In this document: positions 1 to 33,596 of the stretch, piece by piece | Layout of the letters: every line of letters begins with the position of its first letter | Position numbering within the stretch: position 1 is the first letter of the stretch | Assembly (NCBI GenBank): GCA_963575745.1 | Contig: CAUYUJ010000018.1 | Coordinates: 1-64,000, forward strand | Reading direction: 5' to 3' | Source: Prorocentrum cordatum | Taxonomy: Eukaryota | Length of the DNA: 64,000 nt | Translations under genes and position numbers: made by a program | The notes under the pieces: generated by a model | What the model saw: the letters and a program-made list of their open reading frames with translations, nothing else | What the model was told of the DNA's origin: nothing | Databases searched by the model: none

Positions 1-1680
1 CGGTGCTGGCGTCGGTGCCCGCGTCCGTGCTGATGTCGACGATGATGCTGGAGCTGACGTAGGCGCTGGCGCTGGTCTCATGCAGGCGTGGGTGTTGGTG
101 CCGGCGCAGGCGCTGGCGTCGGTGCTGGCCATATCGGTAAGTTGTGCATGCGGGTCTGTCCGCTGGGTGGTGTCCCGGCGAAGGCGGTGGCATCGGTGAA
201 GTCGCTGGCGTCGGTGCTGGCCTCAGTGCTGGTGTCGTGTGACGCGCTGGCGTCGGTCCTGGCCTCAGTGCTAGCGTCAGTGCCGGTGTCCGTGCTGATG
301 TCAGCGATGGCGTCGAAACTGTCAGGCGCCGGCGTTGGTGTGGGCTATAAGCGCAGACGCTGGTCCCGACGAGGGCCGTAGGCTTTGGCGTTGGTGCTGG
401 CCTCAATGCAGGCGTCGGTACCGGCGTCTTTGCTGCTGGGAAAGGTGACCTCGGATCTGCCGTAGAGCTGGCGCTGCTGCCGGCGAAGGCGCAGGCGTTG
501 GTGCCGGCGAAGGCGCTGGAGTCGGAGCTGGCCTCGGTACTGGCGTTAATGCTGATGTCCGTGCTGATGTGAGCCGGCGTGGACGCTGGCGCTTGTGCTG
601 GCGTACCGGCGCAAGCGTTGGGGCAGGCGCAGGCGCTGGCGTCGGTGCTGGCCTCGATGCTGGCGTCGGTGCCCGCGTCCGTGCTGATGTCGACGATGGT
701 GCCGGAGCTGACGCAGGCGCTGGCGCTGGTGTCGGCGGGGGCGCAGGCCTTGGTGCCGGCGCAGGCGCTGGCGTCGGGGCTGGCCGAATCGGTACGTTGT
801 TCACCCGGCGCAGTCGCAGGCGCTCGCGCCGGCGAAGGCGCTGGCGTTGGTGTGGGCCTCGGTGCCGGTATTGGTGGACGCGCTGGCGTCCGTGCTGGCC
901 TCGGTGCTAGCGTCACTGCTGGTGCCCGTGCTGATGTCCACGATGGCGTCGGAACTAGCAGGCGCCAGCTTTGGTGCCGGCGTAGGCGCCGACGGTGGTG
1001 CTGGCGTCAGTGCTGGCGTCGGCGAAGGTGAAGGCGGTGGCGTGGCGCGGGCGTCGGCGCAGGCGGAGATGCTGGCGTCGGTGCTGGCGTCGGCGTCGGT
1101 GTAGGCGTTGGCGTTCATGGTGGCGCCAGTGCCGGCGACGGTGCTGGCGCAGGCCCTGGCGGAGTCGTTGGCCTTGGTGCTGGCGCCAATGCTGGCGTCG
1201 GCGCCGGTGGCTGGCGTGGGCGCAGGCTTCGATTCTGGCGTCGGTGCTGACGTCGGTGCTGGCGTACGCACCAGCGTTGGTGCTGGCATCGGTGCCGGCG
1301 TCGGTAATGGTGTAGGCGCTGGCGCAGGTGCCAGTGAAGGCGCCGGCATTGGTGCTGGCGTCGGTGCTGGCGTCCGCGCTGGGGAAGGCGCTGGCGTTAG
1401 TGCCAGCGCAATCGCAAGCATTGGTGCTGGAGTCGGTGATGGCGGCGACGGTGGCGAAGGCGCCGGCGTAGGTGCTGCTGTCGGCGCTGGCGCCAGCGCT
1501 GGTGTCGGTGCCGGCGTTGGGGTGGATGTAGGCGCCGGCGTTGGTGCTGGCGTCGGTGCTTGAAAAGGTGCTGGTGCAGGCGCTGGCGCTGGTGCCGGCC
1601 TCGGCGCAGGCGCTGGTGCTGGCGTCGGTGCTGGCGCCGGCGCTGGCATTCGCGCCAGCGTTGGTATCGGCGTCGGGGCC
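1..1680. repeat. Degenerate GCTGGCGTCGGT/GGTGCTGGC low-complexity tandem repeat, same motif family as the repeats inside the LINE ORF1
   Basis: Repeated gtcggtgctggc units; 1-150 recurs at about 655-800; ORFs here are only Ala/Gly/Val- or Pro/Ala/Thr-rich readings. Confidence 0.85.
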
Positions 1681-1932
1681 TTCTCGACTGCCTCCTTGCC
1701 CTCCCCCTCCTTCTCTGCCTGCTCCACCTCCTCGGCCTCCACCTCCTCCACCGCCGCCTCCCTGGTCCTTCGCCTCCCCCACCTCGTCGCCGTCACCTGC
1801 CGGCTCTCTGGCCGCTGCTGCTCCCCATCGCGATGAGCGACGTCTGGTTGCCTGCCGCCGTGAACAGCGAACGGTCGAGCTACAGCCGCCCGGTGCGCGA
1901 CTGCCCCGCAGGTCGTCCGTCTCGCGGCCGGG

Positions 1933-4900
1933 CTACAGCCACCTGGTGCGCGACTGCACCCGCAAGTCGCCCTGCGCGCGGAGCTCCGCGGCCCACTCGA
2001 CGCCCTCCGTGGCGAGGGCGTCGGCGCCGCTGTTGAGTCTGCGGCGGACGGCCTGGAACTCGAGAACCCAGCCCTCGGCCGCAAGAGGCGCCAAGCCCTC
2101 CTCGATCTCGGCCTGGAGCTCCAGCCGCCGAAACCGGCCAGTGCCGGCGCCGTAGCGGATCGCCGCCGTGTTGTCGCCGGCCACGCGGGCGCGGCGGAAG
2201 GGCAAGGCCAGGCCCCGCAGCAGGCCGAGGCCGTGGCGACATCCGACGGCCTCCGCGGGTTGCGAGCCAGGTCCGGCTGGAAGTGCCACTACCACCTCCG
2301 CCACTCTGGTAGGGGCGCCTCCGGCGAGGTGGTGGCGCCAGAGGATGGCGCCCGCTCCGCTCGCTTCCTCGCCGTCGAACCGCCGCGAGCCGCCATCGAA
2401 GGTGACCTCCAGGGGCCATGTCGCATCCTCGTGGGCTGGCGACGGCGACCACGCCACAGTCACCTCTTCGTCGGGCAGAAGGCGCTGACCAGCTCTCAGG
2501 CACGCCCGGGAGCAGCGGCAGTGAGGGCAGTGCTGGACCGACCACTCCGCGGTGGCCAACGCCGGAGGGACACGACGAGGCCGGGGCCACCAGCCGGCGC
2601 CTGCTGGAATCCAAGCTGCAGGGCTGCTATCGGCCGTGAGGCATCCGAGGAGGTCGCCGGGCGCGGCAGAGCGCCGGGCCACCGCACGTCGAACCATGGC
2701 GCCGCCTCCACGGTCCTCGCGCGCCAGCGCGGCAGGGACCGCCGAAGAACGCATCCCGAGGGCGGGGGCCGCAATCGCCGCGCAGTCCGGACAGGACGGA
2801 TCGGGCGGGCCCCAGGCGTCTGGGCAAAGGCCGGCTGGCTGCCGAGCTGGGCCCGGCTGCGCGTGAGTGGCCGCGGCGCCGTCGCCCGCGTCGGGGTCAT
2901 CGAGGTCGTCGTCGTCGCTGTTGTCCGCGTTGCCGCGCGCGCTGGTGGCCGCGAAAGCCCGGACCAGCCGCCGTGCCGCGTCCGGACTCTGGAGAGTGGC
3001 CCTGCCAAGCAGCGACATGTAGTGGAAGACCAGCTGGTGAGTGAAGGCGGCCACTGGCTGGGCCAGGTCGCCGGGCGCGCGCAGCGCCTCGCCGAAGGCG
3101 GGAGCATCGGCGGCAGGGAACAACCGGCGCCACGCGAGCGCCACGGCCGGGCACCAATGCCAGAGGTGCTCTGCTCCGGCCTCCCCGGCGCCGCAGAGCG
3201 GGCACGAACCGTAACCGCTGGGGCCCCAGGCGTCCGGTGGAGCGAGGCGGGGCCGCGCGGCCTGGAGACGCGCCGCGTCGGCGCGGAGCTCCTCCGGCAG
3301 CAGATGCAGCGGGCGGGCAGCCCATGCGTGCCCGTCGGCCCACGGCCCGAAGCAGTCCGCACACCACTCCAGCGCGGGCTGCCCGCTGTGAGCGGTCCGC
3401 CAAGCGTGGCAGGCTGGTCGGGCGCACACGCAGCACAGCCGGGGCGGGCGCTCGTCCGAAGGCCGCCACCGAGCCGCCCCGGGCAGGCCGTTTGCCAAGA
3501 AACGCAAGATGTGGAAGGCCGCCGTGTAGCTCCGGGCCACTCCGAGGAGCACCCACTCGTCACCGAGGCTGGGCGCCCACCGTCGCGTTGTGGAGCGCTC
3601 CAGTAGCCAGTCCCCGAGGCACCGAGCGCGGGCGGCCGCCCAGGCCGCCACGTAGAGCGCTCGGCCGAGGCGGGCGGCGCGAAGGCGCGGCTGTGGCCAA
3701 AGCCGCGCGCCGGCGGCGCGGCGGAGCTGGAGCGCCGCGTCTGCGAGGCCGAGCGGGCCCCCGCGCGGCCGCGGGGCAAGCGGCGCCGGCTGGGGTTGCT
3801 GAGCCCACTGCTGGAGGCGGCCCCACCACCACCCAAGCTCCTCGCGCAGCGGGCGGGGGGCCCAAGCGTCGCGCCGCACCGAAGCCAACGCCGCAGTGGC
3901 ACGGGCGGCGGCCACCGGGCATCTCGGCGCCCCGCGGGCTCCGCAGTAGGGGCCGATTCCTGTGGCCACCCACGTGGGACACCAGCGCGTGCCTGCGATG
4001 CGGAGCGCCGTGGCCATCGCATGGGTCGCGGCGGACTCGTCCGCCGGCAAGGGGAGCCCGACGTGCGTGGGGTATTCCGTCAATGGTGCGGCGTAGGAAT
4101 TCCAAGCCGCCGCGCGGCGTCCGGGGGAGCCGACCGCCCCGCCAAGGGCGGCGCCCCGCTCGCGAAGTCGGCCGGAGGCGCGGCGCCAAGAACCCTGCCG
4201 CACCGCCGCAAGGGCGCCCGCGGACCACCCCCTCGGTGCGCCAGCCGCCAGTGCGCGCGAGCCCAAGGCCGCGCCCAAGTACGGCGAGGCCGGGCGCGCG
4301 GCGGCGCGGCCGAAGGGCGACGCCGCCATGCAGGTGGCCCAGCGGTCCAGGTGTGCGGCTGGCACCAATGCTGTCTTCACAGAGCAACCGCACGCGCGCC
4401 CGAGGATTCGCCAGCCACGGACCGCGTCTTCCCCGCATCGGTGCGCCAGAACGTCCCGGACCAGCTCTGGAATCAGGCCGGTGATGTGCAAGTCGCCGCC
4501 GTTGTCCACCATGCTGACGGGGAGGTCCGCGCACGTCCGCCGCACCGCCAAAGGAGCCCCCGGCAGTACCAGGAGCGCGCAGGAGTGCGCCTCGACACAC
4601 AGGCCGGCCACCCAGGAAGCGTACACCAGGTAGAAGGACACCCGCAGGGCCTGGCGGGGTCCCACCACGAGGCAGGCGGTGTCGTCCATGAAGGTGGGGT
4701 CTGCCACTCCGAGCGCGCGCTGCAGCCCCGCGATGATGGGGTCGTAGCAAACGTTCCACAGGAGGGGCGAGGCGGTGCCGCCCATCCCGATTGATCGTCT
4801 GAGGCGCCTTGGGGGCCCGCCCCGGCCTGCCCGGAGGGCCCGGACGCTGCGGTCCACCACGAGACTTAAGAAGCCGTTGGTGACCCAGGCTGGAAGGCGC

Positions 4901-7494
4901 CATCGCTCGAGCAACTCGCGGAGCCAGGCCCAAGACACCCGTTCGAAGGCCTTTGATTGGTCCGCGCACAATACCGCAGTGGCCAGACGAAGGTCGCCCT
5001 CCTCCACCTCGCCGATATGGCGCTCGATCGCTGGTGCGTCTGGCCCAAGAAGTGCCTGCCAGAGCGGGCCTGGCGGAGAGGCTGGGCGCGGGGCCGGGTC
5101 CTCCAGGTGCCGGAAAGCGGCCGCGATGTTGGGGCCGCACGAGCCGCCCGCGACCGCCGCCTGCCCCTCAGCGAATTGGGCCTCGAGGGCCGGGCCTGCG
5201 GCCGAGGCAAGCGCGGCGCCGTATAGCCTCCGGAAGCAAGTCGGCAGCTGGAGGGGCCGCATGTCGCCCGCTTGCTCCCCATCGGGCTTCTTCAGTATCC
5301 ATATGAGCAAGTCCACCGATGGGCCCAGCACGGTGGGAAGCACTTGCGGCCACAACTGCGCGGCATGGAAGGCCTGTCCCAAAAGCGCAGCCACGAAGCG
5401 GGCGCCGATGTGATAGCACTCGTAAGGCTCAGCGTCCAGGCCGGCGGCGGAGCCGCAGGGCCCAAGCACCAAGGAGGCAAGGCGCCGCCAGCGCGGCCGC
5501 GGGCGTGCTGGCAAGTCCACCGCGCGGTGCAAGAAATAATCATCCAGGAGAGCAGAGGCCCGGGCAGGTGTGGGCGGCGCTGAGCCCCACAGCGGTTCCC
5601 GATTCTCCCAAAGGATCGCCTCCACTTCAGCTGGCTCGTCGTGCCACCGGCCGTGGGCATCGCGGACACCGCGGAGTGAGTGGACGCGGTTGAAAAGCTG
5701 GCGCCCTATGCGGAAGGGCTCAGCGAGCGCGGGCCTGGCCGCCGAAGCGCCGCGCTCCCACGGCCGAAGCCGCACTCGGCGGTGGTGGTGCTGCTCCCGT
5801 TGCCACAAGGCGAGCCATGCGGCAAGCGCCTCCTGGTTCAGCTCGCGGCCGTCCCAACCAAGGGCGCGCATCCACTCGCCAGTAGGTCCAGAAGGCGCAT
5901 GGGTACCACCACGGGCGGCAGCGCGAGCAAGCTCCGTGCCAGGTTCCGGCAGGGGGCGCCGCCTGCGCCAGTCCTCCCACCAGCTGGCCAGCATAGCCGA
6001 GAGGGCGGCACGCCCATACAGCATCAGGGCAGGGAGGACGGGAACCTCCTGGCCGGCGTCGTCGGCATCTTCTCCACCTCTTCTTCCTGCTGCAGCAGCG
6101 CGTCCCCCTCCAGCACCCTCGCCTCCGGGTAGGTCGGCCTCGCTTGCAGGAATCTCCTGGCCGGCGTCGTCGGCATTTCCTCCTCCTCCTCGTCTTCCTC
6201 CTCCTCCACCTCCTCCTCTTCCACGGCGCCTGCGCCCTCGCCCTCCTCCATCCCCTCCAGGCGGGTCAGCTGCACCTTCGCCGTCGGCTCCGGGCGGGCC
6301 GTAGTCTGTGCCGTAGATGTCCGCGTTGAGCCTGTCATGCAACGCGTCCTCCGGGCCCGCCGGTCGGTCTCCCCATGCCGCAGGGCGCAATCCTGAGAGG
6401 TCGACGTCTGGGAGGTCAAACGCTCGCCCCAGCAGCGCGTACCGCCTCCGCAAGTCCATGAAGGCCTCCTGGGGGAGGGCCTTGAACGTGGCCGGCGTGA
6501 GAGCCCGTACCGCCGTACCCTGCTGCACCTCAGGGCCGGCGAGAATAGCGGCATGATCGGAGAGGGGCAATCTCCATACCAACTGTGGTCTCCAGCGCCA
6601 CGCCTCTCGCAGCGGCGCCGCCACGAGATCCAGCTGAGCAGGAGGGCCGCGCGCTCCGCGTCGTGTGACCGCGGCGCCAGTGACTGCGGTGAGGCCGTGT
6701 GCGTGGAGAAGTGCATGAAATTCCGCAGCCAGCTCCTCCTCCCCGTCCCGCGGCTCGTGCAACTGGAAGTTCACATCGCCGCCGAGGTAAGTGGCCACCT
6801 CGGGGGCTGCAGGAAGAGCCGCACGCACGGCCGCCAGGGTGGCGCGCTGTGCGCCCGGCGGCAAGTACAAGGAGACGAAACGGACCAAGGAGCGGGCGAT
6901 GATCGTGTGGACGGCCAATGCACACCCAGGCACTAGCTCCGTAACGGTCGTCGCCTGCAGCGTCGCCGGGAGCAGCACGGCAACGCCGCCGGTAGCTCCG
7001 CCGCCTGGCCCAACCTGTGCCGGAGAAGAGTGGACCGTGGCCGGCGGAAACTGGGCTGCCCACAGCGCCTGCTCTGCTGCGCCCCAGTGCGTCTCCCCGA
7101 GCAGGACGATGCGCCCAGCGTCGAGCCACCCCTGGACCATCCGGCGCTTGGCCGAATTGTTCGTGGCGTGGGGGTCGACCAGCCACCTGATGTTCCAAGC
7201 GGCGAGGCGGAGGCCGGCGCCCGCGCGGTCCTCGCGCAGCGCGGCCAACAGTTGCGAGAGGCCTCGGCCTTCGCAAAGGCGGCCCCATGTGGCGCCCGGC
7301 GGCACCCGGGACCTGTGGAGGAGCAGCCACAAGGCGTTCGCCGAGCGGACCCTCGCTGACACCCCAGCGGCAGCGAGAGCGACCGCAAGCCTGTCCCGGA
7401 CCGCTGCCCAAGCACGCGTGCGGGCCTGGGGCAGTGGGGCGCCCGGAGGCGGCCGCCCGAGGGCGTCCAGGAGGAGGGCGGCGTCCGGATCCAT
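1933..7494 (-). CDS. LINE ORF2 polyprotein (1853 aa from the ATG at 7494): AP endonuclease, reverse transcriptase, Zn knuckle, SET-like segment, RNase H
   Basis: APE about 6541-7205: AWNIRWL, LGETHW, GGVAVLL, SLYLPP, GGDVN, LDLV, SDHAAI. RT about 4270-5460: SAAGLD, MRPLQL, DQSKAFERVSW, GMGGTASPLLW, FMDD, YLG. CPLC..EHLWHWCP about 3148-3205. RNase H about 1960-2410: FDGGSR, GAGAIL, AEAVG, GDN, RRLNSGADALA. Confidence 0.95.
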   Translation of the reverse strand: MDPDAALLLDALGRPPPGAPLPQARTRAWAAVRDRLAVALAAAGVSARVRSANALWLLLHRSRVPPGATWGRLCEGRGLSQLLAALREDRAGAGLRLAAWNIRWLVDPHATNNSAKRRMVQGWLDAGRIVLLGETHWGAAEQALWAAQFPPATVHSSPAQVGPGGGATGGVAVLLPATLQATTVTELVPGCALAVHTIIARSLVRFVSLYLPPGAQRATLAAVRAALPAAPEVATYLGGDVNFQLHEPRDGEEELAAEFHALLHAHGLTAVTGAAVTRRGARGPPAQLDLVAAPLREAWRWRPQLVWRLPLSDHAAILAGPEVQQGTAVRALTPATFKALPQEAFMDLRRRYALLGRAFDLPDVDLSGLRPAAWGDRPAGPEDALHDRLNADIYGTDYGPPGADGEGAADPPGGDGGGRGRRRRGRGGGGGGGRRGGGGNADDAGQEIPASEADLPGGEGAGGGRAAAAGRRGGEDADDAGQEVPVLPALMLYGRAALSAMLASWWEDWRRRRPLPEPGTELARAAARGGTHAPSGPTGEWMRALGWDGRELNQEALAAWLALWQREQHHHRRVRLRPWERGASAARPALAEPFRIGRQLFNRVHSLRGVRDAHGRWHDEPAEVEAILWENREPLWGSAPPTPARASALLDDYFLHRAVDLPARPRPRWRRLASLVLGPCGSAAGLDAEPYECYHIGARFVAALLGQAFHAAQLWPQVLPTVLGPSVDLLIWILKKPDGEQAGDMRPLQLPTCFRRLYGAALASAAGPALEAQFAEGQAAVAGGSCGPNIAAAFRHLEDPAPRPASPPGPLWQALLGPDAPAIERHIGEVEEGDLRLATAVLCADQSKAFERVSWAWLRELLERWRLPAWVTNGFLSLVVDRSVRALRAGRGGPPRRLRRSIGMGGTASPLLWNVCYDPIIAGLQRALGVADPTFMDDTACLVVGPRQALRVSFYLVYASWVAGLCVEAHSCALLVLPGAPLAVRRTCADLPVSMVDNGGDLHITGLIPELVRDVLAHRCGEDAVRGWRILGRACGCSVKTALVPAAHLDRWATCMAASPFGRAAARPASPYLGAALGSRALAAGAPRGWSAGALAAVRQGSWRRASGRLRERGAALGGAVGSPGRRAAAWNSYAAPLTEYPTHVGLPLPADESAATHAMATALRIAGTRWCPTWVATGIGPYCGARGAPRCPVAAARATAALASVRRDAWAPRPLREELGWWWGRLQQWAQQPQPAPLAPRPRGGPLGLADAALQLRRAAGARLWPQPRLRAARLGRALYVAAWAAARARCLGDWLLERSTTRRWAPSLGDEWVLLGVARSYTAAFHILRFLANGLPGAARWRPSDERPPRLCCVCARPACHAWRTAHSGQPALEWCADCFGPWADGHAWAARPLHLLPEELRADAARLQAARPRLAPPDAWGPSGYGSCPLCGAGEAGAEHLWHWCPAVALAWRRLFPAADAPAFGEALRAPGDLAQPVAAFTHQLVFHYMSLLGRATLQSPDAARRLVRAFAATSARGNADNSDDDDLDDPDAGDGAAATHAQPGPARQPAGLCPDAWGPPDPSCPDCAAIAAPALGMRSSAVPAALAREDRGGGAMVRRAVARRSAAPGDLLGCLTADSSPAAWIPAGAGWWPRPRRVPPALATAEWSVQHCPHCRCSRACLRAGQRLLPDEEVTVAWSPSPAHEDATWPLEVTFDGGSRRFDGEEASGAGAILWRHHLAGGAPTRVAEVVVALPAGPGSQPAEAVGCRHGLGLLRGLALPFRRARVAGDNTAAIRYGAGTGRFRRLELQAEIEEGLAPLAAEGWVLEFQAVRRRLNSGADALATEGVEWAAELRAQGDLRVQSRTRWL

Positions 7495-10400
7495 CACTGG
7501 GCGCGGCGGCCGTCTTCGGCCGCTGGGGGGTGAGCTGCAGCAGCGTGCGCAGCACTGGAGGCCGGCAGACCGGCTGCGGCGGGCACCGCGGGTGCGGCGG
7601 CCGGAGCGGATGCAGGACCGTCCTGCGGATGCTCCGCATCAGGTCCGGCCAGGCGCTGGGCGGGTCGCCGTGCGCCAAGCATGTCTCCGACCAGGTCGAG
7701 CGGTACAGGCCACTCGCGCGTGGGGCGGGGTGGGCCAGGAAGGCCGTCCACGTCCGCAGCAAGCCGGCGGTACTGGGAGAGCAACGCGGCTGGCGCGTGG
7801 TACGCCCGCGGATGCCCTGTCCTTCCCTGGAGCCAATCGCGCAGTGGTCCGCGGAGCCGCACCTGCAGGGCGGTCACGTCCAAATGGCTCCCGACCGCAT
7901 CGAACAACTGTCGGGCCTCCAGTCCGAGCCCCGCGAGATAGGGCCCATGGCCCGTGGCAGCCGCGCGCTCTGCGGGGGAGGGCATCCTCACCCCGTGGGC
8001 TGCGCCGTGGGTCTCCACCCAACAAGCGAATCTCTGTGCCTCGAGGTTGTTCTCCAGCGACCTCCCTCCCAGGACGAGCCCGAAGGCGGGGAGGAGGTGC
8101 CTGGGGAGGATGCGGCGGAATCGGGCCGCGACGTCGTTCAGCGTGAGCTGCCGCCAGGGCGCGTCGGCCGCGTATAGCATCGTGCGCGGGTGGTACTGGG
8201 GAGTGCTGTGCCGAATCTGATCCCCGAGCCCTGTGGAACGCGTCATCGGCGCAGTACCTCCATCGTCCCAGTGGGGCGCGAAGCCGCCCTCCCAGGGAGC
8301 CGGCCGGCGGACAGGCGTGAAGCTGGGATCCAGCACGATCGGCAGCGTGCTGAGGTAAAGGCGCCTCCGCGGGAAAGGAGCCCACGCCCTGGAGTCCACC
8401 ACCAGTACGTGTCCACCGTCGTCGAGATCGCCGAGGGCCCTGGTCATCGCCGCCCTATGGAGGGGGTGGGTGGTGGCTGCACTTTCCACCACGGCGTGAA
8501 CGTGACAGTCGGGCCGCAGGCCCTGCAGGCTCCAGACAACCAGCGGTATCGTCCAGAAGAGGTACGAGTCGTCGCCGCATAGGCCCTGGCGGCCTTGGTG
8601 CGGGCCCGCGGCATGCAGCTGCTGGGGAGGGGTGCCGGCGATCACCAGCACTAGGCTGCCTGGCGGGAAGCCCCGGCCGAAGCGGGCCAGCGGAGGGTCC
8701 GCCCCGCGGAAGAGGTCCCAGATGTCGCCAGCGAGCTTGACGTGAGGCGTCGTACCTGTGAGGCGAGCCTGGGTGGCCCAGCTGCGCTCAACCGCCGCGG
8801 CAAGTGTCGCGTCAGCCTCGGCGAAGCCTGACTGGGCTAATCCAGGATGGCGGAAGTCCCGCAAGAGTCCGTCCAACGCCACGCGCGTCATGCCAAGGCT
8901 GTCGAAGAGCGAGAGCAAGCAGACCGGCTGGGCAGGCAACGCGGCGGCCGTGTCGCTGGGCGCCGCGGCCTGAACGGCGGGCTGGTCCAGGAATCCAGCC
9001 CAGCTCTGGAATGCAGGGTCGCCTGGGCCCGTGGGGTCGCGGTCATGTCCAGGTGCCGCCGTTTCCGCTCCCGCCTGCCGGACGCGCATGCGGCGAGGCA
9101 AGGGGGGCCAGGCCCCGTGGGCGACGTCCTCGAGGCCCGGCTCGGCGGGCACAGGGGATCGGCGCCGGACTCCCGCCAGTCGCGGGGCAGGGCCAGCTGA
9201 GCCGCGGCGGCGGGCCGCAGCGCGGGCCCCGGCGCCGCTAGCACCATGTCCGCGCCCTCGGTCGCGGCCCCGGCTGCCGAGGGGCGCCGTCGCAACTGCG
9301 CCGTCCGCGCGGTCCCCGGACGAAGGGGGGGCACCTGGTGCCGCTGCGGCGGGCGCTGCTGGTGTGCCCGGCGTGCTCCGGACGGGGTTCCGTGACGTCG
9401 ATGCTGGTGGTACCGGCGCCGGTGTTGCTGCTGGAGTCGGAGCTACTGGCGCTGACGTCGGTGCCGCTGGTACTGACGTCGGTGCTGCTGGTACTGACGT
9501 CGGTGCTGCTGGTACGGACGTCGGTGCTGCTGGTACTGACGTCGGTGCTGCTGGTACGGACGTCAGTGCTGCTGGTACTGATGTCAGTGCTACTGGTGCT
9601 GACGTCGGTGTTTCTGTTGGAGTCCGAGCTGATGTCAGTGCTGCTGGTGACGGCGGCGCTGGTGCTGGTGCTGGCGTCAGTGTTGCTGCTGGTGCGGGCG
9701 CTGTCGTCCGAGTTGGTGCTGGAGCTGACGCCGGTGCGGCTGCTGGTGCTGGCGTCGGTGCTGAAACCGGTGCCGACGTTGACGTCGGTGCTACTGCGCG
9801 TCCTAGCGCCGGTGCTGCTGCTGTCGGTGGTGCAGCTAGGTCTGGAGCCACCGTCGGTGCTGCTGTGGACGTCGGTGATGCTGCTGGTGCGGACGTCGGT
9901 GCTGCTGCCGGTGCTGGCGCTGACGTCGGTGCTGCTGCTTGCATGGTCGTCGGCGCGGCCGTCTGGCCGGATCCGCCGCCGCCATTGCGGTCACTGCTGA
10001 GGGCCTGACCGTCGCCCGAAAGGTCTGCAACAGCACCAAGATGCAACGCCCTCGCTCCGCCTTGGTGGGCAAGCTGCCCGGGATGCTCTTCTCCGAGGCG
10101 CAAGGGGGCAGTCTGGCCCGGGGCAAACAGCTGCGGCCGCCCTTGTGGCGGCAGTGTCGGGGGGGCCTCGGCGGAGGCGGGGCCGGCCCTGGGCGCGGCA
10201 ACGGCTGCTGGCGCGGGTGCTACTGGCGAGACTGGAAGCACGGGCGCTGGCGCCGCAGCACCAGTTGGCAGCGCGAGCGCGCCCGAAGGGCCGGAGAGCG
10301 ATCCGGTGGCGGGCGCTGCAGGGGGAGCCGTGCCAGCGCTGGAGGCTAGCGCTGCTGCTTGCACGAGTCCATGCTGCGGGCGACCGTTTAGGTAGCCACC

Positions 10401-13238: not shown

Positions 13239-13271
13239 TTCCGGTGGGAGGCGGGTTCGGCCTTCGCCCGG

Positions 13272-16200: not shown

Positions 16201-19200
16201 ATTGCCAACACCTGCGGACCTCCCCAAGCCCCATCAGTGAGCCGCTCATCTCCGTCCGCTGCGACATCCGTGACGTCGATAGGCCGCAGCTCCCGGCGCG
16301 TCTGCACCAATGGCCGCTGAAAGTCCGGAGGGGCTGGCAGGGCCGCGTGGGCTCCATGGGCCTCGCGCCGCAAGTCGGAAGCTGGATGGAACGCCTCCAT
16401 CATGGCGAGGTCGCCCGCGCGGGCTTCGGCCATCACGATCTCCTGCAGCACGTCGGGGATGTAAGCGCCTGGGTGGTCGGGGGCCCTGACAGGCCGACGT
16501 TCGCCCTGGTAGGTCGCCCACGGGCCGTGCAAGGCCGCTAGAGCGCAGAGCACGCGGTGCGCGGAGACCAAGTTGTCCACCCCCCTTTGGTTCCACCAAG
16601 CGCGCACTCGTCGTACGCCATCCGTGCCCATGTCCATCTCCCTGCATTGGTGCACCAAGATCTGGAAATCGTCCTCGTGGACCGTGCCCCAGATGAGGGG
16701 GTTCGTGAGGCTGCTCCACGTGAAATCTGGCCGGACCGCTCCAGCCCGCCGGATGGAGGCGACGGTGGTGCGTAGCCCGTCGAACCACCACTGCACTGCA
16801 GGCGCGGTGGCCCGGCCGGGTGGTCGCCTGGAGGAGCGAGGCGGCTCCTGCCGCTGGGCTGCGGGCTGCTCATCTGAGCCGGAACGGGCAATGTCGAAGA
16901 GGCTGGCCACCAAGGCGGCTCCTCCTGGCGCGGCGGCGCTGCTGCTCCCGAGGCTGAGCTCGGCCAGCCGAGCCGGGGGCAGGAGGGGGACTGGTCGCGC
17001 CGCTCCGTTAGGATGGGGCTCGGCCTCGTCCACGCTGGCTGCAGCCCCTGCCGGGCGTGCCCGTGCAGCGGGTCCGTCCGGTATCGCTGGCGTGGCTAGG
17101 CGCTGGAGCAGGCGCCAGCTCGTACTGCTCGCGCCTGCGCGCGGGGGCACTGGGAGCAGGACCTCCGCGAGGCGCGAATCCCTGGTGCCGTCACCACGGT
17201 GCTCGGGTGGAGCGCCGTCGGCGTCGGCGGGTCTGGCGCCGCTGCCACCTGCGAAGGCAAGCAGAGTAGCTGGCGGGCCCTGCTCTTGCGGGCTGGCGGG
17301 GCGGCCAGCACCAATCGCCCGAGCCCCAGGGAGTCTCGAAACTGAATGGCCTTCCTCCTCGAGCTGCTCGCCCTCCCTCCTCAATTCGACTTCCGCCGCC
17401 TCCTCCTCCTCCTCCTCCTCCGGCGCCTCCTCTTCCTCCTCGGCCCGGAATGCTCTCGGCGAGGCGCTCTGAGGCTCCCTCTCCACAACGGGAGGGCTCA
17501 TCTCTTCGGCAGCGGCGGCGGAGCTTCCATTCGCGGCGGGGCTTCTTCCATTCGCGGCAGGGACGCTCTCAGCTTCATCAGTCCGTGCGTCCTCCTGGTC
17601 GTACTGCCCTCCTCTCACGCCGCCGCCTCCTCCGCCTCCGCCTCCGCCTCCTCCTCCTCCTCCCACTCCTCCTCCTCCTCCTTCTTCTCTTGTTCTCTGG
17701 GCTGGCGGCGGGCCGCGGCCGTGCTGGCCACAGCCGTGGCGGTGCAAGTGGTCTCGGGGGTGCCGTGTGGGCTCCTCGCGCGCGTCGTCAGCCGCTCCGG
17801 CGTCGCCGGCAGGGTGGCCTGGCGGGGCAGAGGAGGCGCGACGAGTCGGCGCCTGCGCTGCGGCGGGCGCAGCAGAAGCCCCGCCGGGCCGCGCGTGGCC
17901 CTCCGCTGCGGGAGGGCGTACCAGCACAGTCGTCGGGCGCGGAGGGCTGGCGCGCGTCACCTCCTGCTCTGGGCGGTCACGGTCCGTTGCTTGTGGGCTG
18001 CTGGCCGCTGAAGCGGCCTCCGCGGCGGCGGGCATGCCTCCGCGCAGGCGCGAGACCAGGTCCAATGTCGACCCCTTCTGGATGCCGTAATCCGACACCA
18101 TGTCGCCATCTTGCAGTTGCTTCCCAGCGAAGATTAAGCGCTGCTTGGCGAGATGGGCGCCCCGTCTGCCCCGAATCAGGGCCCGTATGTGGCCGACCGT
18201 AGTGCTGCTCCAAATGCTGAGGGTGAGGGTGCCCTTCGGAGTCGTCACGAAGACCTCCATGTCGCCGGGGTTGAGTCTTCCACGGTGGTGCGTACCGCTG
18301 CGCATGGCCGTCGCGCAGGTCGGATCGGGGATGGCGTGCGAGTCGTGATGACGCTGCTGGCTGCCGTGTTGCTGCGGACTGCCGTCGCTATGCTCCTCGC
18401 GTGCGCTGCAGCAATTCTTCTCCAAGCTTCTGCGCACGAACTCGCGCTCCGGCGCGATAGTGAATGGGTAGCTGCGCTCGGAGAGGCTGTCCAGCAAGCG
18501 ATCCGTGCGACTGGGGCCGTGAAGATCGAGGCGCAGAATGGCACGCGGCAGCGACCAGTCCGCGCCGACGGGAGCTGCCAGCCTCACACGGTCGCCCAAG
18601 CTTCTGCCCCTGATGATGGTACGACCAGAGGCATTGGTGATGCTCTGGGCCTCGGTGTGGGAGATGCTGGCGCTGGTGATGCTGGCGTGGATGTTGGAAT
18701 CGGTGCAAACATCGCTGCTGCTGGCTTTGGTGCAGGAAACGGTGCTGGTGCCGGTCCCGACGTCGATGCCGCAGGCGTCTGCGCCGGATTCGAACCCGGC
18801 GTCATTGTCGAAGGCGTCGGAGCCTGAGTCGGTGCCGGAGTTGGTGCCAGAGCCAGTGCTGGCGTCGATGCTGCTGGTGTCGGTGCCAGAGCCGGTGCAG
18901 GTCTCGATGCTGCTGGCAGCGGTGCCGAACTTGGGGCTGGCGTCGGTGCCAGCGTCGATGATGCTGGCGTCGGTGCCGGTGTCGGGGCCTGCTTCTCTGC
19001 CGGCGTCGCTGCCGCGCGGTGCCGGCGCCGGTGTCGGCGTCGATGCTGCTGGCGCCGGTGCTGGCTTCGGAGCTGCTGGCGTCGGTGCCGCTGGTGTCGG
19101 TGCCGGAGTCGCTGCCAGCACCAGTGCCGGCGTCGATGCTGCTGGCGTCGATGCAACAACCGCTGCAATCGCCGATGCGGCTGGGGTCGTCGGTGGCGTC

Positions 19201-21353
19201 GGAGTCGGTGCCGGCGTCGTTGCTGGCGTCGATGTTGGCAGCGTCGGTGCCAGACTCGGTGCTAAGATCGGTGCCGGTGTCGGTCCCAGGGTTGTAGCTG
19301 GCGTCGGTGCTGGAGTCGGTGCCGGCGTCGATGCTGCTGGCGTCGGTGCTGGCGCCGGAGCTGCTGGCGTCGGTGCCGTTGCTGGTGCCGGGGCCGCTGC
19401 CAGCACCGGTGCCGGCGTCGATACTGCTGGCGTCGATGCCGCAGTCGTGGCCGTCGCCGATGCGGCTGGCATCGTCGGTGGAGTCGGAGTCGGTGCCGGC
19501 GTCGTTGCTGGCGTCGATGTTGCTGGCGTCGGGGCCAGACTCGGTGCTAAGATCCGTGCCGGTGCCGGTCCCAAGGTGGCTGCTGGTGGCGTCGGTGCCG
19601 GAATCGGTGCCGGCGTCGGTGCTGGCGCGTCGACGCTGCCAGCCTCGGTGCCGGCCTCTATGCTGCTGTCGTCTGTGCCGGAGTCAGCGCCAGTGTCGAC
19701 GGAGCTGGCGTTGGCGACGGAATCGGTGCCAGCGTCGATCCTGCTGGCGTCGGCGCAGGAGTCGGTGCCAACGTCTGTGCTGGCGTCGGCGTCAGAGTCC
19801 CTCTTGGCGTCGATGCCGCTGGCGCCAGTACCAGACCAGGCGTCGGTGCTGGCGTCGATGCTGCTGGCCAGCGCGGACAGAATATCGCAGCCAGACGGCA
19901 CCTGGCGGTCGTCGTACAAGTCCTGCCCGTCGCGAGCATCGTGCCTCGCACCGTCGCTAAAGCTCTTTCTGGTGGTACGGCCAGAGGCGTCGGTGATGCT
20001 GTGGGCACTGGTGTGGGAGGTGCTGGCGCCTGTGATGCTGGCGTCGATGTTGGAATCGGTGCAACCATCGATGCTGCTGACATCGGTGCTGGAATCGGTA
20101 CTGGTGCCGGTGCCGACGCCGATGCCGCTGGCGTCTATGCCGGATCCGAACCTGGCGTCAATGCCGATGGCGCCGGTGCCAAAGTCAGTGCTAGAGTTGG
20201 TGCCAGAGTCAGTGCTGGCGTCGATGCTGCTGGTGTCGGTGCCAGAGTCGGTGCAGGTCACGGAACTGCTGGCGTCGGTGCCGTAATTGAGTCTGGCGTC
20301 GGTGCCAGCGTCGATGATGCTGGCGTCGGTGCCGGTGTCGGGGCCTGCGTCGGTGCTGGCGTCGCTGCTGCTGGCGTCGGTGCCAGCGTCGGTGTCGGCG
20401 TCGATGCTGCTGGTGTCGGTGCTGGCTTCGGAGCTGCTGGCGTCGGTGCCGCCGGTGTCAGTGCCGGAGCCGCTGCCAGCACCAGTGCCGGAGACGATGC
20501 TGCTGGCGTCGATGCAACAGCCGCTGCCGTCGCCGATGCGGCTGGGGTCGTCGGTGGCGTCGGAGTCGGTGCCGGCGTCGTTGCTGGCGTCGATGTTGGC
20601 AGCGTCGGTGCCAGCCTCGGTGCTAAGATCGGTGCCGGTGTCGGTCCCAGGGTTGTTGCTGGCGTCGGTGCCGGAGTCGGTGCCGGCGTCGGCGCCGGCG
20701 TCGATACTGGCAGCCTCGGTTCTGGCCTCGGTGCCGGCGTCGTTGCTGCTGTCGTCGGTGCTGAAGTCAGCGCCAGTGTCGATGGAGCTGGTGTTGGCGC
20801 CGGAAGTGGTGCCGGCGTCGATCCTGCTGGCGTCGGCGCAGGAGTCAATGCCAACGTCTGTACTGGCGTCGGTGCCGGGATCTCTGTTGGCGCCGATGCC
20901 GCTGGCGCCAATACCAGACCAGGCGTCGGTCCTGGCGTCGATGCTGCTGGCCCTCGCGGACAGTATAGCGCAGCCCGGCGGAACCTGACGGTCGTCGTAC
21001 AAGTCGAGCAAATCGTGAGCATCGTGCTCGATGCGGAAGCGATGAACCTGCGACGGCACGGAGATCAGGCCCAGCGCAACGGGGATCGCGCCCAGCACAA
21101 CAGAGTCGTGTTGTGAAAGTTTGTCGTCGCGCTGGGAGCGGTGGTGCTGCTGGCCACTGTCGACTCGGTCAAGTGGCCTATGCGAGATGCTGCTGAGCGG
21201 GTCTCCTTGGGCCTTGTGGTCGCCGCTGTCTCCCTGGCTGCTGTTCGGTTCACCGCGGTGCTCCGGGCCACCGCCGCGCGCGGCCGTCGTGCAGGTCGCC
21301 GTGCGAGTTGTGATTGCGCTGCTGGCTACTGTGCTCTTGTGAACTGCCGTCAC
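13272..21353 (-). CDS. LINE ORF1, middle part: low-complexity repeats, actin relics, ubiquitin domain (18036-18260), RING-H2 finger (about 15450-15625)
   Basis: MEVFVTT...[36 protein letters not shown] (ubiquitin); [19 protein letters not shown] (C3H2C3 RING); [27 protein letters not shown] (actin-like). Confidence 0.82.
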
Positions 21354-22818
21354 GATGGCCCTCGACGGCGCTGCAGTACTTCGTCTCGAGGCCTCTGCGC
21401 CCGATCTCGCGCTCCAGCGCGAGGATGAATGAGTAGCCGCGCTCGGGGAGGCTGTCCAGCAAGCGCAAAGTTGCGCGCGGCAGCCCCCAGTCCGCGCCGA
21501 TGGTAGCCGTCAGCCCCGCGCTGCCGCCGAAGCTGCTGCCAGTAAGGGCGGTGCAACCAGAAGCGTCCAGCGAGAACGCCACCAGGGTGCCCACGTCGTG
21601 CGCCAGCTGGTCACGCGGGCCGTGGCACCGCTGCAGGCCAGCATTGGGGGTGCTGCGGTATGACTGCTGTCTGCTGCCGTGTAGCTGGCTGCAGTGCTGC
21701 CGGCTGCTGTCGTGCTGGGCGCGGCGGCGCTGCTGACTGCCCTCGCGCTGTCCTGAAGAACCACCCCTGTCGGAGCGCAATGCTTCGTCCTGCCTAGGGG
21801 TGGAACCAAATGTGACCAATTCTGTGCCGTCATCTCCTGGGGCCCGGCCGTCAGCGCAGACACCCTGGGGACGCGGAGGGCGTGGGGGAGGAGGAGTGGT
21901 GTAGTGGTTGGAATTCGGGAGGGCTTGGCAGGAGGGCCCGAAGTCCTGGACTGAGAAAGGCACGCATTCCACCCTCAACTCCCCGAGGTTGCGACAGTCT
22001 GGGTCGGGTCGCAAGGTGACGTACGGCAGGGCGAAGCTCTCGCACATGTGCACCCCATGCAGCACACCGTCGCCAGAGGCCTTGAAGGTGCCGGTGGTGG
22101 TGGTGCTGCTGCCGAAAACGTACAGCGGGAGCACCGCCTCGGTCAGCGTCTGCACGGGAGTCTGAGAGGGACCTGGGCCGGCAAGGTCGCCGCTCAAGAT
22201 CGCGTGCGGCGAGGCGGGCTCCGCGCTCATGGGTGCCTCGGGCGTCCCACTGTCGTCAGAGTCCATGGCGATGTCGGAGCTGTGGTTTGGAGTGTGACCA
22301 GAGGGCGCCAGCTGGATGACCACGTCGGTTGTCACCATGCTGATGGCCTCGGGCGTGGCCTGGACCGGAAGCGCCAGGTGCTCCAGCAGGGCAATGCAGA
22401 AGTCGATGGGGCACCTGGGCGTCGGCACGTCGCACATGCTCCGCGCCTCGCCGTCCACGCGGCAGGCTCCTGGGCCCGAGGCGATCGCCATGTCGCTCGC
22501 AGCTCCTGCGGCGAGTGCGGGGGCTGCCACGCCGTCAATGCGGCCTGGCGGGAAGGCGGATAACCCGCGGGGCAGCGGCGAGGCGGCAAAGGTCCTGCTG
22601 GGCACCCCAGCGCGGTCGGCAGCGGGAGCTGCGGCCGCGTCGCCCAGGCGCACGACGTCCGCCTCGTCGAAAGCCCCGTCGAAGTCGGAGGTGACAGGTC
22701 CTGAGCCGGGACCTGCCGGAGAAGAAACACGGGGAGGGGAGGAGGTAGTTGGAGGCCCTGGGTCCTCTCCACCTGGCGGCGGCGCGGCCCCAGCCGCCGC
22801 CGCGGGGTCGCGGCTCAT
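21250..22818 (-). CDS. LINE ORF1, N-terminal part (likely ATG at 22818), with two actin-derived segments; probably joined to the next ORF across a frameshift near 21300
   Basis: First ATG after the SL cluster, in a GCC-ATG context; [30 protein letters not shown] and [24 protein letters not shown] resemble actin residues about 137-220. Confidence 0.65.
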
Positions 22819-22890
22819 GGCCGCCAGGGCCGCGGGCACCCGCGCCCGGCAGGCCGACGGCGCGCCGGGCCGCCTCACCGCTCCTGGTGG

Positions 22891-22938
22891 CTTGAGCCGG
22901 GGTGGCTTGAGCCATGCTTGAGCCAAGCTGGCTACGGA
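22891..22938 (-). other. Tandem dinoflagellate spliced-leader relics: one full-length and two truncated units
   Basis: Minus strand reads TCCGTAGCCAGCTTGGCTCAAG (20/22 to DCCGTAGCCATTTTGGCTCAAG), then CATGGCTCAAG, then CCACCCCGGCTCAAG. Confidence 0.92.
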
Positions 22939-23024
22939 TCGAAAGATCGAACAAATAAGGGGGATCGAACAGTGTCGTAATTCCGTCGCACGGACGACCC
23001 TTCCCTTTGTCCCTTCCCCGCCGT

Positions 23025-23162
23025 GGGGGGGGGGGCCTTGGGGGGGACCCAGGGAGGGTGGTCCCAGGGGTGGTGGTCCCAGGGGGTGTCCTGGGGGGGA
23101 TTCTCCAGGGGGGTCAGGGGGGGGGGGGGGGCCTTGGGCCGTGACCCCCCCCCCCCCCCGGG
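23025..23162 (+). repeat. G-run cluster (G-quadruplex-prone) followed by a C run
   Basis: About ten runs of 3-15 G, then a long C homopolymer. Confidence 0.7.

Positions 23163-33537: not shown

Positions 33538-33596
<59 letters not shown>
32692..33596 (-). repeat. Left copy of an AT-rich inverted repeat of about 0.9 kb (partner 57430-58329)
   Basis: Reverse complement matches 57430-58329; identical ORF translations at 33187..33528(-) and 57462..57803(+). Confidence 0.92.

What the first reader, a model, noticed from the sequence alone, without database searches (positions are those of the whole stretch)
1933..22938. Giant (at least 21 kb) LINE with ubiquitin, RING, Dnmt-like and SET-like modules: a candidate chromatin/ubiquitin toolkit retrotransposon
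Seen: one co-oriented unit runs SL, ORF1 (actin relics, ubiquitin, RING-H2, RRM-like, Dnmt-like), TGATG, ORF2 (APE, RT, Zn knuckle, SET-like, RNase H). ORF2 is uninterrupted for 1853 codons with EN, RT and RNase H catalytic motifs present. Known: typical LINEs are about 4-8 kb, and Dnmt-carrying LINE/DIRS elements were reported in Symbiodinium (de Mendoza et al. 2018). I do not know of a description of this full combination or size. Inference: a family of giant LINEs whose ORF1 is a polyprotein processed at the ubiquitin GG, releasing an E3-ligase plus pseudo-methyltransferase module that could modulate host silencing or guide targeting.
Basis: partly seen in the sequence, partly recalled or inferred. 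Interest (0 to 1): 0.92.

Follow-up and report, generated by a model that had tools for sequence, protein, structure and literature searches.

The report
Giant DNMT-type LINE with ubiquitin, RING, SET
A very long jumping gene in a red-tide dinoflagellate carries, besides its copying machinery, a ubiquitin-like tag, a ubiquitin-ligase finger, a disabled DNA-methylase and a SET-shaped domain, which extends a LINE type so far described only in coral symbionts.

Summary
The features are real and lie on the minus strand. ORF2 (7494-1933, 1853 codons) has APE, RT, a Cys/His motif, a SET-fold domain and RNase H. It starts at a TGATG overlap with ORF1. ORF1 ends in a C5-DNMT domain whose family consensus keeps motifs I, IV, VI, IX and X. 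This copy and an 88%-identical relative have lost the catalytic Cys (PC to PP) and three other key residues. Upstream in the same frame lie a conserved middle module, a RING-H2 and a ubiquitin-like domain ending in RLRGG-M. One TGA (13274-13272) breaks this frame. The DNMT-to-ORF2 link recurs in a metagenome relative, and RING, middle module and DNMT are colinear in a 1920-aa relative. A second Prorocentrum cordatum copy carries actin relic, ubiquitin and RING. This is a new variant of the SymbioLINE-Dnmt kind, outside Symbiodiniaceae. The SL/actin 5' leader may be a chimeric add-on. Termini, TSDs and copy number remain unknown. RRM-like was not confirmed. New here: an invariant 7-bp hairpin 9 nt before the ORF1 stop in four relatives.

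The parts
22891..22937 (-). DinoSL relic (22937-22917, 2 mismatches) followed by two truncated relics ending in GGCTCAAG
21253..22818 (-). ORF0, 522 aa from an ATG 99 nt after the SL. It is in a different frame from the long ORF and holds actin relics 1 (21982-22146) and 2 (21364-21462).
18813..20746 (-). 12-nt-unit arrays (plus-strand GGCGTCGGTGCC), read as TDAS.. or APTP.. These are internal duplicated blocks: 18554-19519 matches 19916-20874 at 83%.
18321..18599 (-). Actin relic 3 (actin aa 156-246), in the same frame as ubiquitin
   Evidence: E 1.1e-11
18036..18260 (-). Ubiquitin-like domain, 75 aa, from its own Met to RLRGG. The next codon is Met. 41 of 75 residues are identical to ubiquitin.
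15450..15626 (-). RING-H2 finger (C-x2-C-x13-C-x-H-x2-H-x2-C-x27-C-x2-C)
13443..14801 (-). In-frame 21-nt-unit arrays (APTSVPA.. repeats) inside ORF1
13272..13274 (-). The single in-frame TGA that splits ORF1 (context ACC TGA CCG)
10683..10976 (-). Conserved 'middle module' of ORF1 (P0002 aa 766-863), shared with P0078 and P0035
9393..9937 (-). Second in-frame 21-nt-unit array inside ORF1
7692..8930 (-). C5-DNMT-like domain at the C-terminus of ORF1. Motif I has G to S, motif IV has PC to PP, motif VI has ENA to ESA, motif X has GN to GS.
7506..7523 (-). Invariant 7-bp hairpin GCGGCCG-AAGA-CGGCCGC, 9 nt before the ORF1 stop
7492..7496 (-). TGATG: the ORF1 stop overlaps the ORF2 start
1933..7494 (-). 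ORF2, 1853 codons plus TAG
6553..7200 (-). APE endonuclease (PF03372)
4642..4992 (-). Reverse transcriptase core (PF00078; FMDD seen in the translation)
3151..3204 (-). CPLCG..EH..WCP Cys/His motif, invariant in 3 of 3 ORF2s
2437..2796 (-). SET-fold domain without the NHSCxPN and ELxFDY motifs
2038..2421 (-). RNase H domain
494..1647 (-). 12-nt-unit array downstream of ORF2, of the same family as the 5' and internal arrays. It is either a 3' tail or the target site; this is unresolved.

Best explanation
This is a near full-length copy, on the minus strand, of a dinoflagellate LINE of the DNMT-in-ORF1 kind (SymbioLINE-Dnmt-like). The host is Prorocentrum cordatum, as named by the source for the matching proteins.

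The element proper runs at least from the ubiquitin Met (18260) to the ORF2 stop (1933), about 16.3 kb.

ORF1 encodes a ubiquitin-like domain ending in RLRGG-M, a RING-H2 finger, a conserved middle module and a C5-DNMT domain that has lost its catalytic residues. Microsatellite-like arrays inflate it about threefold.

ORF2 encodes APE, RT, a Cys/His motif, a SET-fold domain and RNase H.

Inferred mechanism:
1. The RNA is SL trans-spliced.
2. ORF1 is translated from the ubiquitin Met. Host deubiquitinases may clip it after GG.
3. ORF2 is made by termination-reinitiation at the stop/start overlap, helped by the invariant hairpin 9 nt upstream.
4. ORF2p copies the RNA into the genome by target-primed reverse transcription.
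5. The RING plus dead DNMT (and the SET-fold domain) act as binding or E3 modules rather than as methyltransferases.

This particular copy is probably disabled by the TGA at 13274-13272.

The 4.7-kb SL/actin/array leader is most likely a 5' chimera. An SL-capped actin mRNA would have been copied by template switching, then duplicated internally. The leader is now carried along, and is not an original part of the LINE.
For: Shown:
- APE and RT by Pfam.
- RNase H fold: Z 9.2, rmsd 3.2 over 113 aa. Foldseek E 2e-5. RVT_3 scores 22.0 bits against a cut-off of 21.6 in homologue P0156.
- Two full-length ORF2 homologues, 43% and 39% identical.
- The DNMT family has 456 representatives at E<=1e-3. Its consensus carries motifs I, IV, VI, IX and X. 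A profile of it hits 40 C5-DNMTs among 41 PDB sequences.
- PF00145 is found in 3 of 35 relatives scanned, 2 of them above the cut-off.
- DNMT is followed directly by the ORF2/APE start in metagenome locus L002. ORF2 there is 43% identical over P0001 aa 69-204, E 9e-28.
- P0035 shows RING (E 0.003), middle module (E 0.001) and DNMT (E 3e-40) in the same order.
- P0078 shows the middle module (E 2.5e-10) and then DNMT.
- One frame with a single stop runs from 21509 to 7494, with a coding-type codon-position GC pattern.
- A second P. cordatum copy with actin relic 3, ubiquitin and RING lies on another contig. It has 4 internal substitutions in 172 aa.
- The hairpin is identical in the window, L001 and L002, with one loop change in L003. 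It always lies 9 nt before the stop.
- The hairpin is the longest exact word the window shares with L001 and L002.
- Ubiquitin identity is 13 of 39 in the N-terminal half and 28 of 36 in the C-terminal half. I counted this on the alignment.
- The leader has the shape of a template-switch chimera. It has an exact mRNA 5' end (SL) and is cut at an internal actin codon near 246, next to the ubiquitin.
Against: - No termini, TSDs or copy series could be obtained, because no genome is held.
- Public contigs of the best DNA holder tile the element at a word depth of only about 2-10 outside the arrays. It is therefore not an abundant recent family.
- ORF1 is interrupted by a TGA.
- Ubiquitin was found only in the two near-identical copies, not in P0035 or 34 other relatives.
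- The second copy has a RING zinc ligand changed from C to R.
- The RING match to P0035 is weak and could be generic.
- CpG is not depleted (o/e 0.92-1.0), unlike what is reported for SymbioLINE-Dnmt.
- The SET-fold model rests on 3 sequences, with mean pLDDT 54-62.
- Foldseek gives no E<=0.001 for the small SET model.
- The same array family lies both 5' of the ubiquitin and 3' of ORF2. This would also fit insertion of the LINE into a pre-existing array.
Confidence: 0.65

Rival explanations
1. The whole 21 kb from the SL to the ORF2 stop is the mobile unit. Its trans-spliced full-length RNA has been retroposed at least three times, and the actin/array part belongs to a giant ORF1 or its leader.
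For: - Three tandem SL relics mark the 5' end.
- GC falls from about 0.66-0.70 to 0.50 just beyond it.
- The long frame stays open from 21509 through actin relic 3 into the ubiquitin.
- The second copy P0157 also starts in actin relic 3.
Against: - Stacked SL relics are common on dinoflagellate retrogenes (review PMC11453091, passages read). They could have come with an actin mRNA.
- Actin relics 1 and 2 sit in ORF0, in another frame.
- The open frame upstream of the ubiquitin is largely 12-nt arrays, which stay open trivially. It has no ATG for about 400 codons before the ubiquitin region.
- No other copy reaching the SL was seen.
Confidence: 0.3
2. Two neighbours rather than one element. On this reading, a ubiquitin-RING gene or retrogene (SL to 13272) lies upstream of an 11-kb DNMT-LINE that begins after the TGA.
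For: - The TGA sits exactly between the two parts, after a long repeat array.
- The public gene model P0157 covers only the ubiquitin-RING part, and P0158 covers only DNMT plus APE.
- No relative with ubiquitin was found.
Against: - P0035 carries RING, middle module and DNMT in one 1920-aa protein.
- The two parts share one frame with only this one stop in about 3588 codons counted from the ubiquitin Met.
- There is no SL relic or other boundary signal near 13.3 kb.
Confidence: 0.12
3. A decaying, non-functional relic. On this reading the odd domains are captured host fragments (actin, ubiquitin, RING) and eroded enzymes, with no role for the element.
For: - There is a premature TGA.
- DNMT catalytic residues are lost.
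- The SET motifs are absent.
- A RING ligand is lost in the second copy.
- The ubiquitin is 55% identical to ubiquitin.
- Word depth in public contigs is low.
Against: - ORF2 is fully open with the EN, RT and RNase H motifs.
- Ubiquitin divergence is strongly uneven: 33% identity in the N-terminal half and 78% in the C-terminal half, with RLRGG kept.
- The DNMT domain stays open and 88% identical in P0005 after the catalytic loss.
- The SET-fold region is conserved in three ORF2s that are 39-43% identical.
Confidence: 0.25

Closest known systems
SymbioLINE-Dnmt (de Mendoza et al. 2018, PMC5890265; section 6 and passages read, peer-review supplement searched)
   Same: Both are dinoflagellate LINEs with a divergent C5-DNMT in ORF1 upstream of an ORF2 with Exo_endo_phos and RVT_1. 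Neither has a poly-A tail after ORF2.
   Different: - The host is Prorocentrum, not Symbiodiniaceae.
- The DNMT catalytic Cys and three other motif residues are lost here.
- There is no CpG depletion.
- ORF1 also has a ubiquitin-like domain and a RING-H2, and ORF2 has a SET-fold domain. The words ubiquitin, RING and 'SET domain' occur 0 times in that paper's main text.
- Direct sequence relatedness to the Symbiodinium elements could not be tested.
SART1-type translational coupling at overlapping stop/start codons, and calicivirus TURBS reinitiation (recalled, no paper read)
   Same: The ORF1 stop and ORF2 start overlap or abut: TGATG, TAAATG, TGAcaATG. A conserved element lies just upstream.
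   Different: The element here is a GC hairpin at a fixed 9-nt distance. Its function is not tested.
Natural ubiquitin-fusion genes and ubiquitin insertions in pestivirus polyproteins (recalled)
   Same: An N-terminal ubiquitin ends in RLRGG directly before the next protein's Met, the arrangement that host deubiquitinases cleave.
   Different: The domain here is only 55% identical to ubiquitin and sits on a LINE ORF1. Cleavage is not shown.
UHRF1-type UBL plus RING proteins that read DNA methylation (recalled)
   Same: A UBL, a RING E3 and a module that binds the DNMT substrate lie in one polypeptide.
   Different: There is no SRA, PHD or tudor domain. This is an analogy only.
Template-switch chimeric retrocopies such as U6/L1 (recalled)
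   Same: The 5' part starts at the exact 5' end of another RNA (the SL) and is cut internally where it joins the LINE.
   Different: The leader has since been duplicated and filled with arrays. The junction cannot be pinned down.

Membership tests
APE-type LINE (non-LTR retrotransposon) | ORF2 with an N-terminal APE endonuclease and an RT carrying the xxDD motif | tested here: met
   PF03372 at 1.7e-7 and PF00078 at 6.4e-9. FMDD seen.
APE-type LINE (non-LTR retrotransposon) | Dispersed copies with a common 3' end, 5' truncation and TSDs | tested here: inconclusive
   No genome is held. One search shows 88-92% identical pieces in run X4 and two loose ends (4831, 6109) that look like 5' truncations. 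No TSD was found.
APE-type LINE (non-LTR retrotransposon) | No long terminal repeats | tested here: met
   Self-BLAST of the window shows no flanking direct repeats, only internal arrays.
SymbioLINE-Dnmt | C5-DNMT domain in ORF1 directly upstream of the RT ORF | tested here: met
   The same link is seen in L002.
SymbioLINE-Dnmt | Conserved key catalytic residues of the DNMT | tested here: not met
   The window and P0005 have GTPPQQ, VESA or VESS, and GSHLD or GGHLD. The family consensus has GSPCQQ, ENA and GNHFD.
SymbioLINE-Dnmt | CpG depletion of the element | tested here: not met
   CpG o/e is 0.92-1.00 in all parts.
SymbioLINE-Dnmt | Sequence relatedness of RT and DNMT to the Symbiodinium elements | not testable with these tools
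C5 DNA methyltransferase | Homology to solved C5-DNMTs | tested here: met
   A profile of A2 hits DRM2 at 1.8e-5, M.HhaI at 2e-3 and DNMT3A at 5e-3. 40 of 41 hits are C5-DNMTs. The window alone gives no Pfam or PDB hit.
Ubiquitin | Beta-grasp ubiquitin family match over the full length, with a C-terminal RLRGG | tested here: met
   PF00240 at 9.8e-15. Residues 1-75 align to 1-76 of ubiquitin.
Ubiquitin | Near-invariant ubiquitin sequence | tested here: not met
   41 of 75 residues are identical, with one residue deleted (my count on the alignment).
RING-H2 E3 ligase | C3H2C3 ligand pattern and a RING family match | tested here: met
   Pattern seen. zf-RING_2 scores 30.0 bits against a cut-off of 27.3. 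24 PDB hits are all RING E3s. E3 activity was not tested.
SET-domain lysine methyltransferase | SET fold | tested here: met
   Search of 48,161 chains: SET8 at Z 8.8, rmsd 2.1 over 80 aa. 46 of the 50 rows shown are titled SET, PR or histone methyltransferase entries, and only 87 chains reach Z>=2. Supported also. Model confidence is moderate (pLDDT 61.8, 3 sequences).
SET-domain lysine methyltransferase | NHSCxPN and ELxF/YDY cofactor and catalytic motifs (motif names recalled) | tested here: not met
   Alignment of 3 ORF2s: VQHCPHC / SYCHRCD / ETCSACQ, and EEVTVAW / DEITVRD / SILRVPV. No PF00856 hit.
RNase H type 1 (RT-associated) | RNase H fold with acidic residues | tested here: met
   Z 9.2. 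Foldseek E 2e-5. D, E, D and D are seen in FDGG, AEA, GDN and GAD. RVT_3 scores 13.4 bits in the window and 22.0 in P0156.
LINE ORF1p with RRM | RRM fold in ORF1 | not tested
   There are no Pfam or PDB sequence hits for P0002 aa 1-850.

The most novel reading that the evidence does not exclude
A LINE lineage that carries its own chromatin and ubiquitin toolkit. ORF1p would be a UHRF1-like protein: a UBL, a RING E3 and a catalytically dead DNMT used as a CpG or 5mC (or RNA) reader. ORF2p would bring a SET-fold binding domain. Together they would mark or protect the integration site, or blunt methylation-based silencing, in a genome that largely lacks nucleosomes. ORF2 would be produced through a dedicated hairpin-dependent reinitiation signal.
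Probability: 0.15. Interest if true: 0.85.

Novelty: new variant of a known kind. Interest (0 to 1): 0.62.

Why it matters
DNMT-bearing LINEs were described only in Symbiodiniaceae, and the authors' replies in the peer-review file said that genomes from other dinoflagellate lineages were needed. This element places the kind in Prorocentrales.

It shows that the ORF1 of this group is a multi-domain protein with a RING, a conserved middle module and a DNMT.

It documents a sub-lineage that keeps the DNMT domain after losing its catalytic residues.

It adds three features I could not find in print for LINEs: an N-terminal ubiquitin-like fusion, a SET-fold domain in ORF2, and an invariant hairpin at the ORF1/ORF2 junction. 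The searches were made, which cover only the held open-access library.

At 16-21 kb it would be among the longest LINEs (recalled typical size 4-8 kb). Much of the excess length is array expansion.

If the modules are functional, they offer a way to test how retroelements deal with DNA-methylation-based control in dinoflagellates.

Tried and rejected
- Own-genome search: no genome is held.
- Earlier findings of the scan: three look-ups, nothing found.
The organisms of most relatives are therefore unknown.
- The look-up of sequencing runs: no RNA holder listed. Expression is therefore untested.
- Read laying (window 1-20000, 4 runs, all Logan contigs):
  - It cannot give copy number or termini.
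  - Bins 17343-18676 have almost no cover, being a low-complexity region.
  - The many joints with 21-33-nt sides lie in the arrays, and I disregard them.
- Viral contigs: no relative of the DNMT domain.
- Rfam: no family at gathering score in the window.
- TSD search with the 17 nt upstream of the SL: no second copy near the 3' end.
- Pfam and PDB sequence searches gave nothing for P0002 aa 1-850, for ORF0 outside the actin relics, or for the window's DNMT part alone.
- A regular-expression scan of 150 relatives for RING and LRGG patterns found none. P0035's RING does not fit the strict pattern I used.
- Rejected: a head-to-tail second copy downstream of ORF2. The sequence there is only 64-67% similar array DNA, without SL, actin or ubiquitin.
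- Rejected: an alternative genetic code as the explanation for the TGA. ORF1 itself ends in TGA.
Full report
**Layout.** The unit lies on the minus strand. Stop-to-stop frames give four ORFs:
- 21250-23193 (P0004);
- 13272-21509 (P0003, 2745 aa);
- 7494-13271 (P0002, 1925 aa; same frame as P0003, separated by one TGA);
- 1933-7638 (P0001).

GC is 0.66-0.755 across 1-24 kb and 0.50-0.64 beyond. In the non-repeat parts the codon-position GC pattern (high, low, highest) follows the open frame. The other frames carry 1-14 stops per 200 codons. The window holds no second copy.

**ORF2.** ORF2 runs from the ATG at 7494 to the TAG at 1935-1933, which is 1853 codons.
- Pfam finds Exo_endo_phos (aa 147-362, 1.7e-7) and RVT_1 (aa 883-999, 6.4e-9).
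- Two full-length homologues exist: P0155 (43% identical) and P0156 (39% identical, 98% coverage).
- An AlphaFold model of the last 450 aa was built from 3 sequences, with mean pLDDT 54.3. Residues 289-416 match RNase H at Z 9.2, rmsd 3.2 over 113 aa, and at Foldseek E 2e-5.
- RVT_3 reaches its cut-off in P0156 (22.0 against 21.6 bits) but not in the window (13.4 bits).
- Residues 164-283 of the same model match SET domains: MLL1 Z 8.3, MLL3 8.0, SETD8 7.8.
- I refolded that part alone (156 aa, pLDDT 61.8; the five models range from 34.9 to 61.8) and searched 48,161 representative chains without Foldseek.
  - Only 87 chains reach Z>=2.
  - 46 of the 50 rows shown are titled SET, PR or histone-lysine methyltransferase entries.
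  - The best is SET8 at Z 8.8, rmsd 2.1 over 80 aa.
- Foldseek on the small model also lists only SET proteins, but none at E<=0.001.
- The SET cofactor and catalytic motifs are not kept in any of the three ORF2s. A CxxC pair is conserved instead.

**ORF1, DNMT end.**
- The last 601 aa of ORF1 find 456 cluster representatives at E<=1e-3, 215 of them at E<=1e-10.
- The family consensus shows LSLFDGxG, AGSPCQQLT, ENA, RxPSxxERARAxG and GNHFDP.
- A profile of 13 members hits 41 PDB sequences at E<=1, and 40 of them are C5-DNMTs. DRM2 scores 1.8e-5, M.HhaI 2e-3 and DNMT3A 5e-3.
- PF00145 is seen in 3 of 35 relatives scanned at E<=0.01. P0017 scores 22.1 bits and P0018 24.4 bits against a cut-off of 22. 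P0008 scores 19.8 bits.
- The window alone gives no Pfam or PDB hit.
- The window and P0005 (88% identical) both carry GTPPQQ in place of GSPCQQ, ES in place of EN, and lack the Asn of motif X. The window also has Ser for the first Gly of motif I.
- The loss of catalysis therefore predates the split of these two sequences, and both remain open.
- CpG is not depleted (o/e 0.92-1.0).

**Links between the parts.**
1. In metagenome locus L002, a 35%-identical DNMT ORF is followed at once by an ORF2 whose first 136 matched residues are 43% identical to P0001 aa 69-204 (E 9e-28).
2. P0035 (1920 aa) has a RING-like finger (aa 97-128, E 0.003 against the window's RING). It also has a stretch matching P0002 aa 766-839 (E 0.001) and the DNMT (E 3e-40), in the same order as the window.
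3. P0078 has the same middle module (E 2.5e-10) about 55 aa before its DNMT.
4. In the window the middle module and the DNMT lie about 580 aa apart. The gap is filled with low-complexity sequence and a 21-nt array. Much of the gigantism is therefore array expansion.
5. All arrays, inside ORF1, in the 5' leader and downstream of ORF2, share a GTCGGTGCT core.

**Ubiquitin and RING.**
- The ubiquitin-like domain (18260-18036) starts with its own Met and aligns 1-75 to ubiquitin 1-76. It ends in RLRGG, and a Met follows.
- By my count on the alignment, 13 of 39 N-terminal positions and 28 of 36 C-terminal positions are identical to ubiquitin.
- The RING has the full C3H2C3 pattern. It scores 30.0 bits against a cut-off of 27.3 and 26.9 bits. 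It hits 24 RING E3 chains in the PDB.
- A search with the ubiquitin-to-RING region found one protein, P0157. Its source names it as Prorocentrum cordatum, on a 563-kb contig.
- P0157 covers actin relic 3, the ubiquitin and the RING. It has 4 internal substitutions in the first 172 aa and a C-to-R change at a RING ligand.
- P0158, from the same species on a 119.5-kb contig, matches the window essentially exactly. It fuses DNMT and APE through a predicted intron.
- There are therefore at least two genomic copies of the upstream part. Whether the second arose by retrotransposition or by segmental duplication is unknown.

**The 5' leader.**
- The SL relic (2 mismatches) is followed by two truncated relics.
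- ORF0 (522 aa, another frame) holds actin aa ~119-186 and ~173-204.
- Directly before the ubiquitin, in its frame, lies actin aa 156-246.
- Blocks of relic plus arrays are duplicated.
- The leader has an exact mRNA 5' end and is cut inside the actin coding region where it meets the LINE. This is the form expected of an RT template switch onto an SL-capped actin mRNA (inference).
- The alternative, that the whole 21 kb cycles as one RNA, is not excluded.

**The junction.**
- The ORF1 stop and ORF2 start are TGATG in the window, TAAATG in L002 and TGAcaATG in L003. In L001 they are TAG followed by ATG 9 nt later.
- In all four, a hairpin GCGGCCG-AAGA/AACA-CGGCCGC lies exactly 9 nt before the stop and folds as a 7-bp stem.
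- It is the longest exact word shared by window 1933-9300 with L001 (20 nt) and with L002 (19 nt), at about 37% protein identity.
- The stem never varies, so there is no covariation evidence. Its role in reinitiation is an inference.

**What public reads add.**
- Contigs of the best DNA holder are near-identical to the window and tile 4251-16884, with 0-5 differences per piece. Word depth is about 2-10 outside the arrays and 100-470 in the 3' array.
- Three marine metagenome runs hold identical short pieces.
- One run (X4) holds 88-92% identical pieces in ORF2 (3790-4116, 5165-5745) and in ORF1 (11189-11507).
- Two loose ends (4831, 6109) look like 5'-truncated copies.
- None of this defines termini or copy number.

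**Literature.**
- de Mendoza et al. 2018 (section 6, passages and the peer-review file read) describe SymbioLINE-Dnmt. It has a DNMT in ORF1, Exo_endo_phos and RVT_1 in ORF2, TSDs, no poly-A and CG depletion.
- The words ubiquitin, RING, 'SET domain' and Prorocentrum each occur 0 times in its main text. Ubiquitin, RING and Prorocentrum also occur 0 times in the three supplementary files held as text, and the only 'set' there is the ordinary verb. The supplementary figures file could not be read.
- The P. cordatum genome paper (passages read) gives 59.7% genome GC. Neither 'retrotransposon' nor 'methyltransferase' occurs in its main text.
- Searches for LINE-encoded ubiquitin, RING or SET returned only papers on host factors, judged from the listings.

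**Verdict.** This is a real LINE of the DNMT-in-ORF1 kind in a new host lineage. The additional modules are well supported: RING, a ubiquitin-like domain, a SET fold and a junction hairpin. The methyltransferase is inactivated.

That the element is one mobile unit from the ubiquitin to ORF2 is likely but not proven. Inclusion of the SL/actin leader is open. This copy is probably defective.

Noticed in passing
window 7506-7523 (-); L001 2615-2632; L002 2002-2019; L003 about 2241-2258: An invariant 7-bp GC hairpin lies exactly 9 nt upstream of the ORF1 stop in four relatives that are about 37% identical at protein level. It is the longest exact word they share. It is a candidate reinitiation signal.
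   Followed up: yes
window 46961-46975 (-), with ORFs 45706-47175, 42192-45578 and 40006-42522 (-): A possible second SL relic (CCGTCTTGGCTCAAG, 2 mismatches to the 15-nt relic form) lies upstream of co-oriented long ORFs. The last ORF has an SF1 helicase/AAA_30 domain (E 4e-12). This may be another retroposed or mobile unit.
   Followed up: partly
window 1879-1904 and 1932-1957 (-): The last 26 nt of ORF2, including the TAG, are repeated 53 nt downstream with 2 mismatches.
   Followed up: no
window 23000-23165 (-): A tract rich in G and C homopolymers (runs of 14 G and 14 C, then CCCCTGGGACCAC-type repeats) lies directly upstream of the SL relic.
   Followed up: no
window 48348-52815, N gap at 49203-49302: Large tandem arrays (copies 80-91% identical) with an extreme AT skew of up to 0.8, interrupted by a 100-N assembly gap.
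   Followed up: no
window 33538-35035 against 35533-37134; 32692-33609 against 57379-58329: Inverted repeats of 1.5 kb (85% identical) and 0.95 kb (92.8% identical). These are other repeated elements in the window.
   Followed up: no
P0157 (second P. cordatum copy), RING region: The third zinc ligand of the RING is Arg instead of Cys (WPGRGH against WPGCGH), so the second copy has a damaged RING.
   Followed up: partly
window 1-2000, 9339-10005, 13341-14674, 18677-20000: The GTCGGTGCT-core arrays have word depths of tens to more than a thousand in one organism run and three marine metagenome runs. They belong to a very abundant repeat family.
   Followed up: partly
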